From a virus (taxonomy: Duplodnaviria > Caudoviricetes), in IMG/VR virus record IMGVR_UViG_3300037761_000271, positions 22,486 to 86,485 of that record: DNA of 64,000 bases, one strand, 5' to 3'. Positions 23,831 to 36,787 of this stretch are shown in pieces; position 1 is the first letter of the stretch; each line of letters opens with the position of its first letter. Made by a program: the position numbers and the translations under genes. The notes beneath the pieces were generated by a model. The model ran no database searches and was not told where the DNA came from. It was given only the letters and a program-made list of their open reading frames with translations.

Positions 23831-24814
23831 TCACCTTCCGAACATGTCCAGGGCGATGATGAATGACGGGTGCCGGGCCGGGTCGAATCCGGACCGGTTG
23901 TACAGGCTGGTGGTGCGTGCGTCCTCATGGCCGGCTGCGTCCTTGAGGTCGGCGAGTGGGATGCCCAGTTCGTGCCCGCGGGTGATGTAGGCGTGCCGCA
24001 GCGTGTGAGGTCCGATGGGCGACTCAATACCTGCCCGCTGACCCAGCCGGCGGAGGGTCTTCCACGCGGCCTTCCGATCGAGTCGGCGCCCGCTCTCCGT
24101 AGCCAGCAGCGGACCCCCCTTGCGCCCCTCCACCATCGGCTGCACCCGCTGCCAGGCCGGCGGAGACAGCGGCACGTCCTCTTCCTTGTCGCCTTTGCGG
24201 GTGACGTGCACGAACCGGACGCCCTTGCGGGGTGGGGTGATGTCCTCAACGTTGGCGCCCAGCGCTTCGGAGACCCGCAGGCAGGCCATCACCAGCAGCG
24301 CGACCAGCGCGGCCGTGCGGGGGCTGTCAGCGTCGGCTGCCGCGACCAGCGCCCGGACCTCGGCAGGTTCGAGGTAGGGCTGACGGGATGTGCGCTTGGC
24401 CTTCGGCCGGTCCTGCGGCGGCACTGGGTTGCGGTCGGTCTTCTGGTCGGAGATGGCCCGGCGGTAGTAGCTGGAGATCGCGGCCATGTGCCGGGCGACG
24501 GACCGGCGGGCCAGCGGCCGGGGTTTGCGGGAGGCCGGGTTGCCGACCGTCTCCAGCGCGGTGGTGTATGCCTCAAGGTCGGACCGTTGGGCGTCGAACG
24601 GCGGTACCCCGGTGGCCACGCACCACAGACGCCAAGATCGCCACACGGCGGCGTACTGCGCTTTGGTGTCTGGCGCGAACCGGGGGCTGCGCAGCCACAC
24701 GCCGGCCTGCGCGTCGGCCCGGGTCCACGGGTCGTCGCCGTTGAGCGCGTCCTGCTCGGCCTGACGGGCTGCGGCAAGGCTGCCGACGACGACCGGAAGG
24801 TTGCTCTCCACCAT
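23831..24814 (-). CDS. Tyrosine recombinase (XerC/D-like)
   Basis: Catalytic R (LRVSE), K (TRKG), HxxR (HTLRH), H (AGH), Y (TTSLY). Confidence 0.93.
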   Translation of the reverse strand: MVESNLPVVVGSLAAARQAEQDALNGDDPWTRADAQAGVWLRSPRFAPDTKAQYAAVWRSWRLWCVATGVPPFDAQRSDLEAYTTALETVGNPASRKPRPLARRSVARHMAAISSYYRRAISDQKTDRNPVPPQDRPKAKRTSRQPYLEPAEVRALVAAADADSPRTAALVALLVMACLRVSEALGANVEDITPPRKGVRFVHVTRKGDKEEDVPLSPPAWQRVQPMVEGRKGGPLLATESGRRLDRKAAWKTLRRLGQRAGIESPIGPHTLRHAYITRGHELGIPLADLKDAAGHEDARTTSLYNRSGFDPARHPSFIIALDMFGR

Positions 24815-31272: not shown

Positions 31273-31591
31273 CCCGGCTTTGCCCAACCGGGTCGAGGTT
31301 GAGGCGTGGCTGGCATCCCGCGCCCACCCCACCGGCTGGGCCACCACCTTGACGGGCCTGCCGTGGGAGATCATCCACCCGGTGTGCCGCATCGCCGCCG
31401 CCAGCCGTGTCCACCCGGCCGTAGTGCTCGGGGCGGCTGCGGCGTACACCGGCGACCGGGGCGACCGGGGCGTCCGGCAGGCCATCACCCAGCAGCTGAC
31501 CCACCACGGCCACACCCCACCCCCAGGCACCGGACCCAACCGCGCCACCCGCCGCGCCCAGACCAGGAACAGCCGCCGCGCTGCGAGGTGA
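31265..31591 (+). CDS. Hypothetical protein
   Basis: Coupled ORF. Confidence 0.5.
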   Translation: MADPALPNRVEVEAWLASRAHPTGWATTLTGLPWEIIHPVCRIAAASRVHPAVVLGAAAAYTGDRGDRGVRQAITQQLTHHGHTPPPGTGPNRATRRAQTRNSRRAAR

Positions 31592-32131: not shown

Positions 32132-32458
32132 ATGTTTCGGAGCGGGGAGGTCCGGCTCGTGGCAGCTCGAACAAGGCGGCTCCGTGCGGTAGGGCCAGGT
32201 GAGTCCGCGCAGGGAAGGAAGCCACCGCGTGTGACGGTAGCGGCCCAGAGCGGCAGCCACAGGGATCTGCTGGTCGCTCTGCGGTCCAGGATTGCCCAGG
32301 CAGTCGAGGACCCGAACACGCCACCCCGGGATCTGGCGTCACTGTCGCGGCGGCTGCTGGAGATCGCTAAGGAGATCGAGGCGATCGATGCCGACGACCA
32401 GGGGGACGAAGTTGGTGCGGCAGCCGCGACGCCGGACGAACCGTGGGCTGCTACCTGA
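32132..32458 (+). CDS. Terminase small subunit
   Basis: RDLLVALRSRIA..PPRDLASLSRRLLEIAKEIE; synteny. Confidence 0.75.
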   Translation: MFRSGEVRLVAARTRRLRAVGPGESAQGRKPPRVTVAAQSGSHRDLLVALRSRIAQAVEDPNTPPRDLASLSRRLLEIAKEIEAIDADDQGDEVGAAAATPDEPWAAT

Positions 32459-33902
32459 GGCCCGTCACCTGATCTTGCCGAAGGGGATCCGGTCGTCCGG
32501 GTTCCCTTCGGTGCGGGAGACGTGCCGACGTGTCGGTATCGAGTTCGACCGGTGGCAGCAGGATCTGAACAGGTGCCTGCTGGCCAAGGACGCGGCCGGG
32601 TTGTACGCGGCCGACACCGCGGTGCTGTCGATCGCGCGCCAGGTGGGTAAGACCTTCGACGTGGGTGCGGTGGCGTTCGCGTTGTGTATCGCCACGCCGG
32701 GTCTGACGGTGGTGTGGACGGCGCACCGGTTCAAGGTGTCGCGCGAGTCATTCAACGAGATGCGGGCATGGGCGAAACGGCGCCAGCTCGCCGCGCACAT
32801 CGACTACGACGAGATCACCACTGGGGCGGGGAACGAGCAGATCCCGTTCCGCAATGATGCCCGGATCGTGTTCGCGGCCCGGGAGCGTGGGGCGATCCGC
32901 GGGTTCACCAAGGTCGGGGTGCTGGTGCTGGACGAGGCGCAGATCCTGACCGAGGCGGCGCTGTCGGACCTGGTGCCGACGACCAACCAGGCGCCGAACC
33001 CGCTGGTGATCCTGATGGGCACACCGCCGAAGCCGACCGACCCGAGTGAGGTTTTTGTCCGGCTGCGGCAGGAGGCGCTGGACGGCGAGTCGGATGATGT
33101 GCTGTACGTCGAGCTGTCCGCCGACGCGAACGCCGACCCGAACGACCGTAGGCAGTGGCGCAAGGCGAACCTGTCGTACCCGGCCCGCACGTCGGAGCGG
33201 GCGATCCTGCGGCTGAAGAAGCTGCTGTCGGCCGAGGATTTCCTGCGGGAGGGGCTGGGGGTCTGGCCGGAGGGCGGCCTACCGAAGTGGCAGGTAATCA
33301 GCGAGGCGGCGTGGCTGGCCCGGCAGAAGACCACCCGCGCGCAGCTTCGGCTGGTCGACCCGGTGACGCTGGGGGTGGATGTCACCCCGGACCGGACCTG
33401 GTCGGCGGTCGCCGCCGCCGGTGACCGGGTCGGTGGCGGCCGGGCGGTGGAGGTCACCGCCGACCCGCAGGCGGCCGAGCTGCGGGACCGGGTGGACTAC
33501 CGGCCGGGCACCGGCTGGGTGATACCCCGGCTGAAGACGCTGGTGGAACGCAACCGGCCGTGTGTGATCGTGATATCGGACCGGGCGCTGTTCGAGGAGG
33601 CCGAGGCGGCTGGGCTGCCGGCCTACCGGGCCAGCACCGGCGACCTGGCGTCGGCGGCGGCGAAGCTGTACGACGGGATCGCCGGCACCACCCCGGACGT
33701 GTGGCACTCACCCGACCCGGACCTGGCCGATGCGGCGGCGGGGGCGACGAAGCGTCCGCTCGGCGATGGGTGGGCGTGGGACCGCCGCTCGGTCAGCGTC
33801 AACATCTGCACCCTGGTCGCCACCAGCCTGGCGTTGTGGGGGGCGGCAACACCTCGCATCCACGTTGCCCGGTTGACCCCGTTCGCCCTCGTCGGCAGCT
33901 AG
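32415..33902 (+). CDS. Terminase large subunit
   Basis: IARQVGKT Walker A, LVLDEAQ Walker B, MGTPP, LGVD nuclease motif. Confidence 0.93.
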   Translation: MRQPRRRTNRGLLPEARHLILPKGIRSSGFPSVRETCRRVGIEFDRWQQDLNRCLLAKDAAGLYAADTAVLSIARQVGKTFDVGAVAFALCIATPGLTVVWTAHRFKVSRESFNEMRAWAKRRQLAAHIDYDEITTGAGNEQIPFRNDARIVFAARERGAIRGFTKVGVLVLDEAQILTEAALSDLVPTTNQAPNPLVILMGTPPKPTDPSEVFVRLRQEALDGESDDVLYVELSADANADPNDRRQWRKANLSYPARTSERAILRLKKLLSAEDFLREGLGVWPEGGLPKWQVISEAAWLARQKTTRAQLRLVDPVTLGVDVTPDRTWSAVAAAGDRVGGGRAVEVTADPQAAELRDRVDYRPGTGWVIPRLKTLVERNRPCVIVISDRALFEEAEAAGLPAYRASTGDLASAAAKLYDGIAGTTPDVWHSPDPDLADAAAGATKRPLGDGWAWDRRSVSVNICTLVATSLALWGAATPRIHVARLTPFALVGS

Positions 33903-33905
33903 ATA

Positions 33906-34000
33906 CCCTCGCCTTGCCCCGCCTGGCCAAGCCAGGCCCGGCCTTGCCGCACCTAGCCATGCCCGGACTCGCCGTACCCAGCCGTGCCCCGCCAGGCCAC
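33906..34000 (-). ncRNA. NN-GGY pentamer array 3 (putative guide RNA)
   Basis: 18 consecutive 5-nt units at 33911-34000 (17 GGY, 1 GTC) plus a terminal GAGGG; starts right after the stop codon at 34002. Confidence 0.85.
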
Positions 34001-34001
34001 G

Positions 34002-34541
34002 CTAACTTTCTCCTCGCTCCAGCCGCTCCAGCCGAGCCTTGAGTTCCGCGATCTCCTCCTCGGACCGCTCGTGACGCTGGTCCATCGACGACAGGGACTC
34101 CTCCAGCCGTTTCTGTCGGATGTCCATCCGCCGGTTGAAGTCCATCTGTGCGGCGAATGCCCGCGCAACCAGCTCGAATGCCTGCCGGGTGTCCGGGTCC
34201 ATGCCCGAGAAGTCGACGTGGACCACCTTCGAATGACCGGAGCGTAGCGCCCGGTTCGACTTCCGCTGCTGCTGGCGGGCAAGCTGCATGTGCTCGGGTG
34301 GCCTCACCACCCGATAGCCCTGGTTGGGGACCGCCTCGACCGCCCGCTTGTCGATCAGCTCATGTTCGCGGGCGGCCCGCCGCATCGCCATCTGTAGCTG
34401 GTGCCGGTCCCGGACAGGATGCAGGCCGAGGGCGTCACCCATCTGCTGGTAGGTGAGGGTGTGGGCGGTCTCGGTGGCCCGGAGCAGGTCGTAGACGATC
34501 CGCCACCGGGGTTGCTCGCCGAGTGGCTGGAATGGTGCCAT
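34002..34541 (-). CDS. Accessory protein: winged-helix-like N-terminus, coiled-coil C-terminus
   Basis: TLTYQQMGDALGL..AMRRA..VPNQGYRV; TGATG-coupled to the RAMP gene. Confidence 0.75.
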   Translation of the reverse strand: MAPFQPLGEQPRWRIVYDLLRATETAHTLTYQQMGDALGLHPVRDRHQLQMAMRRAAREHELIDKRAVEAVPNQGYRVVRPPEHMQLARQQQRKSNRALRSGHSKVVHVDFSGMDPDTRQAFELVARAFAAQMDFNRRMDIRQKRLEESLSSMDQRHERSEEEIAELKARLERLERGES

Positions 34542-35113
34542 CACGCGGTCTCGACCTTGGCGATGAACCGGCCGTAACGGGGGCGCCAGTCGCCCAGCCC
34601 GATCAGTTGTCCGGCGGTTTCGGCGATCGCCTCGACCTCGGCCAGGTCGATGACGTTGGTATCGATGTAGCCGAGGGCATCGGTGCGCCACTCGCGGAAC
34701 ATGGGCCGGCAGCGCATGACCCGCTGCTGCCCGACCTTGGCGGACGCCAGCAGTCGGAAGTTCTCATCGGCCCACAGTCCGGCCGCGTCGCGTGGCCCGC
34801 GGTAGGCGAGCGGGTTCAGGTCGGACTTGATGAACACGCCTTCCTTGACCTTCGGCCCGCGCTTGGACTTCTTCGCCGCGTCGTAAAGGGCGCGCCAGAT
34901 GTTCTCACCGGGGATGAATGGGCCGATCTCCGAGTCGATGTAGAGCGACCCGGCGTGCTCCAGCCGGGCGATCTGTTCGTGGTCATCGTCGGTCTTGTTG
35001 CGCTTCCCGGTGATCCGCTTCATGGCCTTTGCGGCTGGGTCGAGCGGGTTGGACAGCCTGCCGCTGTGCATGAGCAGGCTGGTTGTGCCTTCGATGGTGA
35101 TGCGGAAGTCCAT
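34541..35113 (-). CDS. Stand-alone Cas7/RAMP-like RNA-binding protein (190 aa)
   Basis: ITIEGTTSLLMH first strand, PFIPGENIWRAL (cf. RAMP PYIPGSSLKGAL), C-terminal G-loop IGLGDWRPRYGRF; RBS GAGGAG. Confidence 0.8.
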   Translation of the reverse strand: MDFRITIEGTTSLLMHSGRLSNPLDPAAKAMKRITGKRNKTDDDHEQIARLEHAGSLYIDSEIGPFIPGENIWRALYDAAKKSKRGPKVKEGVFIKSDLNPLAYRGPRDAAGLWADENFRLLASAKVGQQRVMRCRPMFREWRTDALGYIDTNVIDLAEVEAIAETAGQLIGLGDWRPRYGRFIAKVETA

Positions 35114-35139
35114 TTCCCCGTGCTCCTCGTGTTGGTAGT

Positions 35140-35214
35140 TCCCTGCCGCGCCCAGCCGTGCCTCGCCGAGCCCAACCTAGCCAGGCCGCGCCGGGCCCGG
35201 CCCCGCCCCGCCTT
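35140..35214 (-). ncRNA. NN-GGY pentamer array 2 (putative guide RNA)
   Basis: 14 perfect NN-GGY units at 35145-35214 plus a terminal AGGGA. Confidence 0.87.
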
Positions 35215-35217
35215 GCG

Positions 35218-35259
35218 TGCGGTGGTCGGGAGTCGAACCCGACTGATGACCATCACCGC
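35218..35259 (-). ncRNA. tRNA-like minihelix between arrays 1 and 2
   Basis: GCGGTG/CACCGC stem plus GTCGGG-TTCGACT-CCCGAC T-arm, followed by a discriminator-like A. Confidence 0.75.
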
Positions 35260-35261
35260 GC

Positions 35262-35336
35262 CCCATGCCCCGCCTCGACAAGCCGTGCCAAACCAAGACT
35301 CGCCACGCCCAGCCTCGCCTGGCCAAGCCGTGCACC
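35262..35336 (-). ncRNA. NN-GGY pentamer array 1 (putative guide RNA)
   Basis: 13 units at 35267-35331 (11 GGY, 2 GTC) plus a terminal ATGGG. Confidence 0.85.
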
Positions 35337-35339
35337 CGC

Positions 35340-35380
35340 AATATACCACGCTTTACGGGATACATACCACGTCTATACCG
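35340..35380 (-). promoter_or_regulatory. Extended -10 promoter of the cassette with direct repeats
   Basis: TGgTATATT at 35348-35340, about 7 nt before array 1; ATACCACG at 35343 and 35364 (21 bp apart). Confidence 0.65.
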
Positions 35381-35398
35381 TGATAGAGGGGATGCTGT

Positions 35399-36787
35399 GT
35401 GAGCTGGTGGCGGAGGCTGCTGGGGCTCCAGCGGGCCACCAGCACCGAGTTGCAGAAACGGTCGGCCCTGTCCTGGCAGGATTATGTTGATCTTTTCAGT
35501 TTTGGTGGCTCCAGCTATCCGCTGCTGAACACCACCATGGCCTCGATGAACGAGGAGGCCATCGGGTCGACCCTGTCGCAGGTGGCCAAGTCCAACGGGC
35601 CGGTATTCGCGCTGCTGCTCGCCCGGCTACAGGTGTTCTCCCAGGCCCGGTTCCAGTGGACCCGCTTCGACCGGGGGGCGCCCGCCGACCTGTTCGGCAC
35701 GGACGAGCTGGCTGTGCTGGAGCGGCCGTGGCCGGGTGGAACCACCGCGGACCTGCTCGCCCGGATGGAGATCCAGGTCACCACTGCCGGGAACGCCTAT
35801 GTGCGCCGGGTCGGCCGGGGCGAGAAGTCCCGGCTGATCTGCCTGCGGCCGGAGTGGATGTACATCGTCCTCGGGTCGCAGACCGACGCCGACCACCCGG
35901 CCGAAGCCGCCGACGTGGAGCTGCTCGGCTACGTCTACAAGCCACCCAACGCGAAGATGGTCACGTTCCTGCCCGAGGAGATCGCTCACTACGCGCCGAT
36001 CCCGGACCCGGACGCCACCTACCTGGGCATGTCCTGGATCACCGCCGCCCTGCGGGACATCTCCGGCGACAACCTGATGACCGACCACAAGCGCGCCTTC
36101 CTCCGCAACGCGGCCACCCCCAACATGGTGATCAAGTTCGACCCCAGCATCACGCTTGCGGCGGTCAAGGAGTTCAAAGAGGTCTTCGAGGCCGAGCACC
36201 AGGGCGCGCTGAACGCATACAAGACGGTGTACCTGGGCGGCGGCGCCGACGCGACCGTGGTCGGCAAAGACTTCCAGCAGTTGGAGTTCGCGGTCACCCA
36301 GGGCAAGGCCGAGTCGCGGCTGGCATCCTGCGCCGGGGTCCCCCCGTCCTGGGTCGGATTCTCCGAAGGGCTCCAGGGTTCGTCGCTCAACGCGGGCAAC
36401 TTCACCGCCGCCAGGCGCCGCTTCGGCGACGGAACCATGCAGCACATGTGGATGAACGTCGCCGCCAGCCTGGAGATCCTGGTCCGCCGACCCAGCGTCG
36501 GCGTGTACCTGTGGTTCGCCACGAAGGGCATCCCGTTCCTGCACATGGACGCGAAGGACGCGGCCGAGGTGCAGGCCACCGAGGCGCAGACCATCACCGC
36601 GCTGGTGCGGGACGGGTTCACCGCCCAGTCGGCGATCCTCGCGGTCCAGAACCACGACTGGTCCCGCCTGGTGCACACCGGGAGGGTTTCTGTCCAGCTC
36701 CAGACCCCCGGTGAGGCGGACGCGGCGCAGGTCAACGGCAACGGCGCCCGGCGCGGAGAGCTGATCGTCGGTGCCCTGCGGCCATGA
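35399..36787 (+). CDS. Portal protein (HK97-like)
   Basis: GNAYVRR, LRPEW, FLRNAATP, VPPSWVG; position after terL. Confidence 0.92.
   Translation: MSWWRRLLGLQRATSTELQKRSALSWQDYVDLFSFGGSSYPLLNTTMASMNEEAIGSTLSQVAKSNGPVFALLLARLQVFSQARFQWTRFDRGAPADLFGTDELAVLERPWPGGTTADLLARMEIQVTTAGNAYVRRVGRGEKSRLICLRPEWMYIVLGSQTDADHPAEAADVELLGYVYKPPNAKMVTFLPEEIAHYAPIPDPDATYLGMSWITAALRDISGDNLMTDHKRAFLRNAATPNMVIKFDPSITLAAVKEFKEVFEAEHQGALNAYKTVYLGGGADATVVGKDFQQLEFAVTQGKAESRLASCAGVPPSWVGFSEGLQGSSLNAGNFTAARRRFGDGTMQHMWMNVAASLEILVRRPSVGVYLWFATKGIPFLHMDAKDAAEVQATEAQTITALVRDGFTAQSAILAVQNHDWSRLVHTGRVSVQLQTPGEADAAQVNGNGARRGELIVGALRP

What the first reader, a model, noticed from the sequence alone, without database searches (positions are those of the whole stretch)
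33906..35350. Phage-borne Cas7/RAMP-like protein with NN-GGY pentamer arrays: candidate RNA-guided system with a gapped code
Seen: an antisense cassette between terL and portal with its own extended -10 promoter. Order on the minus strand: array 1, tRNA-like spacer, array 2, RAMP-like gene, partner gene, array 3. The 45 core 5-nt units are NN+GGY (42) or NN+GTC (3): the trinucleotide is fixed and the dinucleotide varies. Knowledge: the protein carries RAMP hallmarks (first beta-strand, P-x-IPG motif, C-terminal G-loop), and Cas7 proteins polymerise on RNA with a fixed nucleotide period. Inference: subunits bind one GGY each and display the NN bases for gapped target pairing. No nuclease or other cas gene is in the window, so the likely output is blocking or silencing of a competing phage. 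It resembles my recollection of recently reported VIPR-type viral systems, so novelty of the class needs checking.
Basis: partly seen in the sequence, partly recalled or inferred. Interest (0 to 1): 0.97.

Follow-up and report, generated by a model that had tools for sequence, protein, structure and literature searches.

The report
Phage VIPR RNA-guided silencing cassette
This is a real member of the VIPR family, a phage RNA-guided DNA-silencing system first published in 2026, so the class is known. Two details may be new: a tRNA-shaped spacer between guide RNAs, and one guide that appears aimed at the portal gene of sibling phages.

Summary
On the minus strand of 33906-35350 lie, in order: a conserved extended -10 promoter, a 13-unit NNGGY array, a tRNA-like minihelix, a 14-unit array, a 190-aa gene, a 179-aa gene and an 18-unit array. 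Of the 45 units, 42 are GGY and 3 are GTC. Shuffled genomes never exceed 8 units in a run.

The 190-aa protein is a Vipr. Its only hit in the PDB is 'SUSP1 Vipr protein' (E 1e-30, full length), and its predicted fold matches Csm3/Cas7. The partner gene belongs to the same PHROG family as the Felixounavirus vap gene next to vipr. The locus is therefore a VIPR system (bioRxiv 10.64898/2026.04.26.720920), closest to type II. The class is not new.

Three points go beyond the papers I could read:
- The tRNA-like minihelix recurs 59 times in VIPR loci of actinophage type, with strong covariation. It probably acts as a processing signal or as a 3' tail.
- Under the published 1-nt-skip rule, guide 1 matches the portal gene of sibling phages that show no cassette at this site at 22/26. 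It matches the phage's own recoded allele at only 20/26.
- The cassette is a mobile insert that also sits in an unrelated phage backbone.

No targets were found for guides 2 and 3.

The parts
35340..35348 (-). Extended -10 promoter motif TGGTATATT, about 9 nt upstream of array 1
   Evidence: The motif TGGTATATTGC is invariant in the window and in L038, L039 and L040, whose flanks differ. The generic sigma-70 scan finds no -35 element. Promoter function is inferred.
35262..35331 (-). vrRNA array 1: 13 NNGGY/NNGTC units plus a terminal ATGGG junction unit. NN series: AC TT CA GA TG GT GA TT TT AC TT GA GG
35218..35259 (-). tRNA-like minihelix: 6-bp acceptor-like stem GCGGTG/CACCGC, an 11-nt linker containing GG, a 5-bp T stem, a TTCGACT T-loop and a discriminator A, followed by CGC
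   Evidence: It is the top hit of covariance model R1 (53.8 bits) and the only hit in the 64-kb window. Covariation was measured in 58 and 32 distinct copies. ARAGORN and Rfam do not call it a tRNA.
35140..35214 (-). vrRNA array 2: 14 NNGGY units plus an AGGGA junction. It runs into the vipr ribosome-binding site (GAGGAG) and start codon
   Evidence: The junction CAGGGA-ACTAC...GAGGAG is conserved in L038-L040 and in MakoManhole.
34541..35113 (-). vipr gene, 190 aa: a RAMP protein with the G-loop motif GLGDWRPRYGRF
   Evidence: PDB 36pp_D 'SUSP1 Vipr protein', E 9.8e-31, residues 4-187. phrog_4652, E 9e-55. 677 homologues at E<=1e-10. AF2 pLDDT 90.5. Top Foldseek hits are Csm3/Cas7, E 3e-6, prob 1.0.
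34002..34541 (-). vap gene, 179 aa (vap1-family accessory protein). Its start overlaps the vipr stop (TGATG). Predicted N-terminal winged helix plus long C-terminal helices
   Evidence: phrog_5926, E 6e-8. The same PHROG is hit by the vipr-adjacent genes of Felixounavirus wV8 (7e-76), Pseudomonas phages and actinophages. 35% identical to MakoManhole gp77. AF2 pLDDT 86.8 with weak hits to MarR/GntR-type winged-helix regulators.
33906..34000 (-). vrRNA array 3: 18 units plus a GAGGG junction. It starts 1 nt after the vap stop codon
33845..33869 (-). Possible terminator or 3' hairpin (GGCAAC-N13-GTTGCC), antisense within the end of terL
   Evidence: Read from the sequence only. It was not called by the terminator scan because it has no T run. 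This is a weak feature.
35471..35508 (+). Guide 1 near-target in the phage's own portal gene (codons 25-37, in frame, skip base at the wobble position): 20 of 26 NN bases match
   Evidence: It is the best hit in the whole genome. 0 of 500 scrambled guides reach 20, and 1 of 50 did. The homologous site in siblings L118, L119 and L141 scores 22/26.
32292..33902 (+). terL, the left flank of the insertion
   Evidence: phrog_9, E 2e-43.
35399..36787 (+). Portal gene, the right flank of the insertion
   Evidence: phrog_12, E 2e-33.

Best explanation
The stretch 33903-35398 is a VIPR (Viral Interference Programmable Repeat) cassette closest to type II. It was inserted as a self-contained module between terL and portal of a probably temperate, 70% GC phage of actinophage type.

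Proposed mechanism:
- One conserved extended -10 promoter drives a transcript that reads vrRNA1, tRNA-like minihelix, vrRNA2, vipr, vap, vrRNA3.
- By homology with the solved SUSP1 system, Vipr protomers polymerise along the GGY repeats. Each NN dinucleotide is exposed and reads double-stranded DNA with one skipped base per unit. The bound filament blocks transcription. The winged-helix Vap assists.
- vrRNA1 is most likely aimed at codons ~25-37 of the portal gene of sibling phages. Their alleles match at 22/26, above the 80% cut-off used in the VIPR paper. The phage's own allele carries extra changes and matches at only 20/26.
- The tRNA-like minihelix takes the place of the SUSP1 pseudoknot tail. 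It most likely recruits host tRNA-processing enzymes (RNase P on its 5' side, RNase Z or a similar enzyme on its 3' side) to separate neighbouring guides. It may also cap the 3' end of vrRNA1.

Shown here: homology, anatomy, covariation and the target match. Inferred: transcription, processing, filament formation and silencing.
For: Family assignment:
- Vipr is a full-length homologue of the solved SUSP1 Vipr, E 1e-30.
- H16, K32 and the GDWRPR G-loop align with SUSP1 H17, K33 and its G-loop. K32, R136 and D175-W176-R177 are invariant and H16 is nearly invariant (>=90%) among 25 homologues.
- The predicted fold is Csm3/Cas7-like.
- The partner gene shares phrog_5926 with the Felixounavirus vap.
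- The three arrays are far beyond chance.
- In about 100 homologous loci the arrays lie only on the vipr strand.
- The published mechanism is described.

Insertion and mobility:
- Siblings L118 (94% nt identity in portal), L119 and L120 have terL followed directly by portal, with no cassette.
- A 92% identical vipr sits in an unrelated, complete phage genome that has no homologue of this terL, portal or capsid gene.

Target of vrRNA1:
- The best own-genome hit lies in the adjacent portal gene.
- The same site is the best hit in four whole sibling genomes.
- It scores 22/26 in L118, L119 and L141 under skip 1, against 15-16 under skip 0, 2 or 3. None of 2000 scrambled guides exceeds 20.

Minihelix:
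- 59 model hits, all on the vipr strand and all next to arrays.
- The T stem and five acceptor pairs are 100% paired, with 4-16 double changes per pair. The covariation score is 0.58 against 0.13 for shuffles, 0/500.
- The TTCGA T-loop is nearly invariant and the GG in the linker is invariant.

Lifestyle: a tyrosine integrase and a serine recombinase are present.
Against: - There are no expression, processing or binding data for this locus.
- Only vrRNA1 is followed by a minihelix. vrRNA2 runs into the vipr leader and vrRNA3 into antisense terL, so there is no shared invariable tail of the kind described for SUSP1.
- No perfect target was found for any guide in IMG/VR or in the metagenome scan. 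Guides 2 and 3 have no target at all.
- The 22/26 versus 20/26 difference between sibling and own alleles is only two bases. Whether it separates binding from non-binding is unknown.
- The first ~115 nt of the portal gene are mosaic among siblings, so part of the local divergence may be recombination rather than escape.
- The type II label rests on similarity and on the vap family, not on the authors' phylogeny.
Confidence: 0.88

Rival explanations
1. The tRNA-like minihelix is not a cleavage signal. It is simply this clade's 3' tail, a structural cap that defines the filament end as the SUSP1 pseudoknot does. The vrRNAs are then separated by other nucleases or by trimming back to the protected filament.
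For: The element sits where the SUSP1 tail sits, directly after an ATGGG-type junction unit. In the SUSP1 structures the pseudoknot caps the 3' end, and DNA engagement starts next to it. Other actinobacterial loci carry plain hairpins in this position. The linker contains a GGY-like motif that could bind one more protomer.
Against: The near-invariant TTCGA T-loop and the invariant linker GG are more than a cap hairpin would need. They are the features that tRNA-processing enzymes recognise (established knowledge of RNase P and RNase Z minihelix substrates). In Trine and MakoManhole a minihelix also precedes the first array. In L039 and L040 the last array of a cluster lacks one, which looks like punctuation between units rather than a tail on each unit.
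Confidence: 0.3
2. The portal match of vrRNA1 serves self-regulation. A partial 20/26 match lets the cassette damp the phage's own late operon, for example during lysogeny, rather than attack sibling phages.
For: The best own-genome match lies only about 130 bp from the array, in frame, in the first late gene downstream of terL. The phage carries integrases.
Against: Sibling alleles match better (22/26) than the phage's own (20/26). Relative to siblings, the own allele has extra non-synonymous changes at two guide units. The VIPR papers report no self-targets at >=80% match, and lower self-match than non-self match.
Confidence: 0.1
3. The cassette is a decaying or inactive relic, and the portal match is a coincidence.
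For: Three units are GTC rather than GGY. Two of the three arrays have no recognisable conserved tail. No perfect target was found.
Against: Both ORFs are intact and have many close homologues. The promoter and the leader junction are conserved. The paper describes internal degenerate units as frequent in vrRNAs. The portal match is specific to the 1-nt-skip rule, beats all 2000 scrambled guides, and recurs as the top hit in four sibling genomes.
Confidence: 0.03

Closest known systems
Type II VIPR systems of Escherichia phage SUSP1 and the Pseudomonas fulva prophage (bioRxiv 10.64898/2026.04.26.720920, 10.64898/2026.04.26.720927 and 10.64898/2026.10.15.759431)
   Same: A Vipr RAMP protein (34% identical to Felixounavirus Vipr, 41-43% to Pseudomonas phage Vipr). 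An adjacent vap of the same PHROG family. NNGGY arrays both upstream and downstream of the genes, on the same strand. Location in a phage. A natural match found only under the 1-nt-skip rule, in a competing phage.
   Different: The host range is actinophage-like at 70% GC. There is no pseudoknot tail: a tRNA-like minihelix follows array 1 and the other two arrays share no tail. The predicted target is the portal gene of sibling phages, not a satellite or a lysis-lysogeny regulator. Array 3 has 18 units, against 9-16 reported.
Hammerhead-ribozyme-interspersed vrRNA arrays of type I and type V VIPR (Fig. S19 of 10.64898/2026.04.26.720920)
   Same: A structured RNA element sits between successive vrRNAs and is presumed to cut the array into units.
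   Different: In those arrays the element cleaves itself. Here it is a tRNA mimic that would depend on host RNase P or RNase Z. Rfam finds no ribozyme here. I could read only the figure legend, not the figure.
Cas7/Csm3 backbone subunits of Class 1 CRISPR effectors
   Same: An RRM/RAMP fold with a G-loop and a thumb. Top structural matches have E 3e-6, prob 1.0 and TM about 0.5. The subunits polymerise on a guide RNA with a fixed period.
   Different: There is no CRISPR repeat-spacer array and no other cas gene in the cassette. The period is 5 nt and only 2 nt per unit are read. Sequence identity is 11-16%.
tRNA-punctuated polycistronic RNAs: engineered tRNA-gRNA arrays, plant tRNA-snoRNA transcripts and MALAT1-mascRNA (from my own knowledge, not checked here)
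   Same: A tRNA-shaped element between functional RNAs is cut by RNase P and RNase Z and so releases the flanking RNAs.
   Different: Those use complete or near-complete cloverleaf tRNAs. Here there is only an acceptor-like stem, a T arm and a short GG-containing linker. Cleavage is untested.

Membership tests
VIPR system | A Vipr protein: a minimal RAMP with an RRM core, a G-loop and a thumb, homologous to characterised Vipr | tested here: met
   phmmer against the PDB gives a single hit, 36pp_D 'SUSP1 Vipr protein', E 9.8e-31 over residues 4-187. The AF2 model (pLDDT 90.5) matches Csm3/Cas7. The G-loop residues GDWRPR are invariant.
VIPR system | vrRNA arrays of tandem YNNGG units (at least 4, typically 9-16) flanking vipr on its strand, with GGY conserved and NN variable | tested here: met
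   There are 13, 14 and 18 units, against a maximum of 8 in shuffles. Homologous loci have arrays only on the vipr strand, and their NN content differs.
VIPR system | A minimal two-gene locus (vipr plus vap) without a CRISPR array or cas operon, mostly in viruses | tested here: met
   There are two overlapping ORFs between terL and portal in an IMG/VR virus record. The rest of the window was not screened for cas genes.
VIPR system | An invariable structured 3' tail after each repeat tract (a pseudoknot in the SUSP1 clade) | tested here: not met
   The three arrays have different 3' contexts. Only array 1 is followed by a conserved structure, and that structure is a tRNA-like minihelix, not a pseudoknot. 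The paper itself describes variable architectures among types.
VIPR system | Target recognition by the 1-nt-skip (xNN) rule | tested here: inconclusive
   Guide 1 matches the sibling portal gene at 22/26 only under skip 1 (15-16 under skip 0, 2 or 3), and 0 of 2000 scrambled guides exceed 20. No perfect target was found and guides 2 and 3 have none.
VIPR system | vrRNAs are expressed, co-purify with Vipr, and repress transcription at targets | not testable with these tools
   This needs small-RNA sequencing, pull-down and reporter assays.
VIPR type II | A vap1-type DNA-binding accessory gene next to vipr | tested here: met
   The window ORF B hits phrog_5926, as do the vipr-adjacent genes of Felixounavirus wV8, Pseudomonas phages Medea1 and LESphi2, and four actinophages. 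The model shows a winged helix.
VIPR type II | Position in the authors' Vipr phylogeny | not tested
   The reference tree and type labels are not available to me. I have only pairwise identities: 34% to Felixounavirus Vipr and 41-43% to Pseudomonas phage Vipr.
CRISPR-Cas Class 1 | A CRISPR repeat-spacer array plus further cas genes (Cas5, Cas6, a large subunit) | tested here: not met
   Only 5-nt units and two genes are present. No Pfam family was hit by Vipr.
tRNA gene | A full cloverleaf with a D arm and an anticodon arm | tested here: not met
   ARAGORN finds no tRNA in the window. There is no Rfam hit at E<=10. The element has only an acceptor-like stem, an 11-nt linker and a T arm.

The most novel reading that the evidence does not exclude
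In VIPR systems of actinophage type, the pseudoknot tail has been replaced by a tRNA-like minihelix. This element hands array maturation to the host's RNase P and RNase Z, a natural counterpart of engineered tRNA-gRNA arrays. In this phage, guide 1 silences the portal gene of sibling phages. The phage's own portal allele has been recoded at that site: two extra amino-acid changes and a run of T-ending codons that is one of the two most AT-rich 30-mers in the genome.
Probability: 0.4. Interest if true: 0.7.

Novelty: new member of a known kind. Interest (0 to 1): 0.5.

Why it matters
The locus extends a system described only this year to high-GC phages of actinophage type. Cultured relatives that can be tested directly carry the same architecture: Gordonia phages MakoManhole and Trine, and Mycobacterium phage LittleE.

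If the tRNA-like spacer is a host-processed punctuation mark, it shows a third way besides pseudoknot tails and hammerhead ribozymes to mature gapped-code guides. It would also be a compact natural design for multiplexed guide arrays.

The portal match gives a concrete, testable case of a phage aiming VIPR at the structural operon of its closest relatives while carrying an escape allele itself.

Tried and rejected
- **Database screens.** Pfam gave nothing for Vipr and only sub-threshold coiled-coil noise for Vap. Rfam at E<=10 gave one chance miRNA hit. A single-sequence fold of the minihelix was no better than shuffles (z = -0.09), so the structure rests on covariation alone.
- **Exact IMG/VR scans.**
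  - The 3' ten units of each guide gave 0 hits.
  - Eight-unit seeds of guides 2 and 3 gave 8 and 7 hits. All were chance: the unforced part matched at background, and most contigs were far below the phage's 70% GC (44-62% GC).
  - The 5' units of guide 1 gave 8 chance hits.
- **Metagenome scan.** A degenerate guide 1 pattern gave 5 hits. One was a portal homologue at 22/26 and four were chance.
- **Self-targets.** Guides 2 and 3 do not exceed scrambled controls in their own genome or in five related genomes.
- **Cross-targeting.** 81 guides from related loci, scanned against these genomes, gave nothing above chance.
- **A scripting error.** read some loci in truncated form, because row names of alignment A2 collided with locus ids. 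One search is superseded. only lost rows from the Vap alignment.
- **Tool limit.** The genome search allows at most 3 mismatches, so an 80%-match scan of host genomes was not possible.
- **Host.** It was not determined. The nearest Vipr homologues in isolate genomes are from Planomonospora and Streptosporangium, and there is one in a Streptantibioticus MAG. This is not evidence of host.
- **Rejected readings.** A CRISPR system, a tRNA gene or attP remnant, and a simple coding or low-complexity repeat.
Full report
**Observation**

On the minus strand, the region has three tracts of 5-nt units with a fixed GGY and a variable dinucleotide:
- 35331-35267: 13 units.
- 35214-35145: 14 units.
- 34000-33911: 18 units.

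Together they hold 42 NNGGY and 3 NNGTC units. In 100 dinucleotide-preserving shuffles of the whole 86,485-bp, 70% GC record, the longest run had 8 units.

Between arrays 2 and 3 lie two overlapping ORFs: 35113-34541 (190 aa) and 34541-34002 (179 aa). The cassette is antisense between terL (32292-33902) and portal (35399-36787). The window is part of an IMG/VR virus record estimated to be 91% complete.

**Identity**

The 190-aa protein has no Pfam family. Against all PDB sequences it hits exactly one entry, 36pp_D 'SUSP1 Vipr protein', at E 9.8e-31 over residues 4-187. It also hits phrog_4652 at 9e-55.

The alignment places H16, K32 and the G-loop GDWRPR opposite SUSP1 H17, K33 and its G-loop. 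K32, R136 and D175-W176-R177 are invariant and H16 is nearly invariant (>=90%) in 25 homologues. They correspond to residues that the structural paper names as GGY and backbone contacts.

An AlphaFold2 model (pLDDT 90.5) matches Csm3/Cas7 subunits of type III, III-D and VII effectors at E 3e-6 to 1e-4, prob 1.0. That PDB copy predates the VIPR depositions.

The 179-aa partner hits phrog_5926. The vipr-adjacent genes of Felixounavirus wV8 (7e-76), Pseudomonas phages Medea1 and LESphi2, and four actinophages hit the same family. Its model (pLDDT 86.8) has an N-terminal winged helix followed by long helices, with weak similarity to MarR/GntR-type regulators.

**Literature**

VIPR systems were described in April 2026 (10.64898/2026.04.26.720920). 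They comprise:
- a Vipr RAMP protein and a vap gene;
- vrRNAs of 9-16 YNNGG repeats with a structured 3' tail;
- dsDNA recognition in which each NN pairs and one target base per unit is skipped;
- transcriptional silencing of competing phages and satellites.

Seven types with variable array architectures are reported. The locus meets every sequence-level criterion except the shared pseudoknot tail. With a vap1-family partner it is closest to type II. The class is therefore known.

**Relatives**

- tblastn finds Vipr in 131 phage records. The nearest are Gordonia phages MakoManhole (57%) and Trine (49%), then Mycobacterium phage LittleE (49%). Pseudomonas phages are at 41-43% and Felixounaviruses at 34%.
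- The large protein collection holds 677 homologues at E<=1e-10.
- In about 100 fetched loci, NNGGY arrays occur on the vipr strand and never on the opposite strand.
- The three nearest loci (85-92% Vipr identity) share the motif TGGTATATTGC just upstream of the first array. They also share the junction CAGGGA-ACTAC...GAGGAG leading into vipr. This supports one promoter and co-transcription, although neither was tested.

**The tRNA-like element**

At 35259-35218 lies a 6-bp acceptor-like stem, an 11-nt linker, a 5-bp T stem with a TTCGACT loop, and a discriminator A followed by CGC. ARAGORN and Rfam do not call it.

The same element flanks arrays in MakoManhole, Trine, LittleE and many uncultivated loci. 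A covariance model found 59 copies in 539 kb. All are on the vipr strand and next to arrays, and only one lies in the 64-kb window.

Covariation:
- The T stem is paired in all 58 distinct copies, with double changes at four of five pairs.
- In a gapless alignment of 32 copies, five acceptor pairs are also 100% paired, with 4-16 double changes each.
- The covariation score is 0.58, against 0.13 for shuffles (0/500) and 0.10-0.14 for slid partners.
- The linker GG is invariant.

The element occurs in 27 loci. It is confined to loci of the actinobacterial clade whose Vipr is at least ~45% identical to this one, plus one Saccharibacteria MAG. Pseudomonas and Felixounavirus loci have pseudoknot-type tails. 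Some actinobacterial loci have plain hairpins.

None of the four papers that mention VIPR contains the word tRNA in its main text, and no held paper combines 'vrRNA' with 'tRNA-like'. Supplements and figures were not available. I can therefore say only that I found no description of this architecture.

Because acceptor-plus-T-arm minihelices are known substrates of RNase P and RNase Z (established knowledge), I favour a processing role at about 55%. A pure tail or cap role gets about 30%.

**Targets**

Under the 1-nt-skip rule, guide 1's best hit in its own genome is 20/26 at 35471-35508. It lies in frame in the adjacent portal gene. 0 of 500 scrambled guides reached 20, and 1 of 50 did. An earlier first-reader note pointed to the same site.

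Results from portal homologues:
- The homologous site scores 22/26 in L118 (94% nt identity in portal) and L119, and in a metagenomic portal, L141.
- It is also the top hit in each of four whole sibling genomes, at 18-20/26.
- On L118, L119 and L141 only skip 1 gives the signal (22, against 15-16 for other skips), and no scrambled guide of 2000 exceeds 20.

Siblings L118-L120 have no cassette between terL and portal. The four larger siblings G001-G004 (including L120's record) have no vipr, though they are only 64-84% complete.

The phage's own allele differs from L118 at 12 of 38 bases in the site. Changes include F to W and W to Y at guide units 2 and 5. The whole first ~115 nt of the gene is mosaic among siblings, so escape is an inference.

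No perfect target exists in IMG/VR or in the metagenome scan. Guides 2 and 3 have no target.

**Mobility and lifestyle**

A 92% identical vipr with a 78% identical vap lies in a complete 52.8-kb phage genome. That genome has no homologue of this phage's terL, portal or capsid gene. The cassette therefore moves between backbones. The genome encodes a tyrosine integrase and a large serine recombinase. This fits expression from a prophage as protection against superinfecting relatives.

**Verdict**

Two features remain of interest: the tRNA-like punctuation, and the predicted targeting of the sibling portal gene together with a recoded own allele.

Noticed in passing
window 35480-35506 (+), portal codons 28-36: Eight of nine consecutive codons end in T, in a gene where 4.3% of codons do. 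The patch 35466-35520 ties for the most AT-rich 30-mer of the 86-kb genome. It coincides with the guide 1 near-target. Siblings have C or G at these positions, except L141, which is partly T. Possible causes are selection acting on the skipped base, a deamination footprint on the non-target strand, or a recombination patch.
   Followed up: partly
L136-L138 (record of L038) compared with window 33903-35398: The same cassette (Vipr 92%, Vap 78% identical) sits in a complete 52.8-kb phage that has no homologue of this phage's terL, portal or capsid gene. Siblings L118-L120, which share this backbone, have no cassette between terL and portal. The cassette is a mobile module.
   Followed up: yes
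window 35113-35145 (-): Array 2 ends 31 nt before the vipr start codon, and the conserved junction contains the ribosome-binding site. A Vipr filament on its own leader could feed back on vipr translation.
   Followed up: no
window 35360-35370 (-): A second motif resembling the -10 element, GTGGTATGTAT, lies about 20 nt upstream of the conserved TGGTATATT. L038 and L039 have TGGGCTATAG in the same place. It could be a second promoter or an operator.
   Followed up: no
window 31499-31548 (-): A weak extra run of 8 NNGGY units among 10, upstream of terL. This is at the upper edge of what shuffles reach (maximum 8), and it is probably coding sequence. It has no minihelix nearby.
   Followed up: no
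L032, L036, L038, L051: Some relatives have uninterrupted tracts of 25-32 units, well above the 9-16 reported for the SUSP1 and P. fulva clades.
   Followed up: no
L018:1311-1364: A Saccharibacteria MAG contig carries a Vipr (45% identity) with the same tRNA-like minihelix, outside the Actinomycetota.
   Followed up: no
window 23891-24376 (-), and about 16 kb before the window start: A tyrosine integrase lies inside the window and a large serine recombinase lies upstream of it. The phage is probably temperate, or it carries an integrated element.
   Followed up: partly
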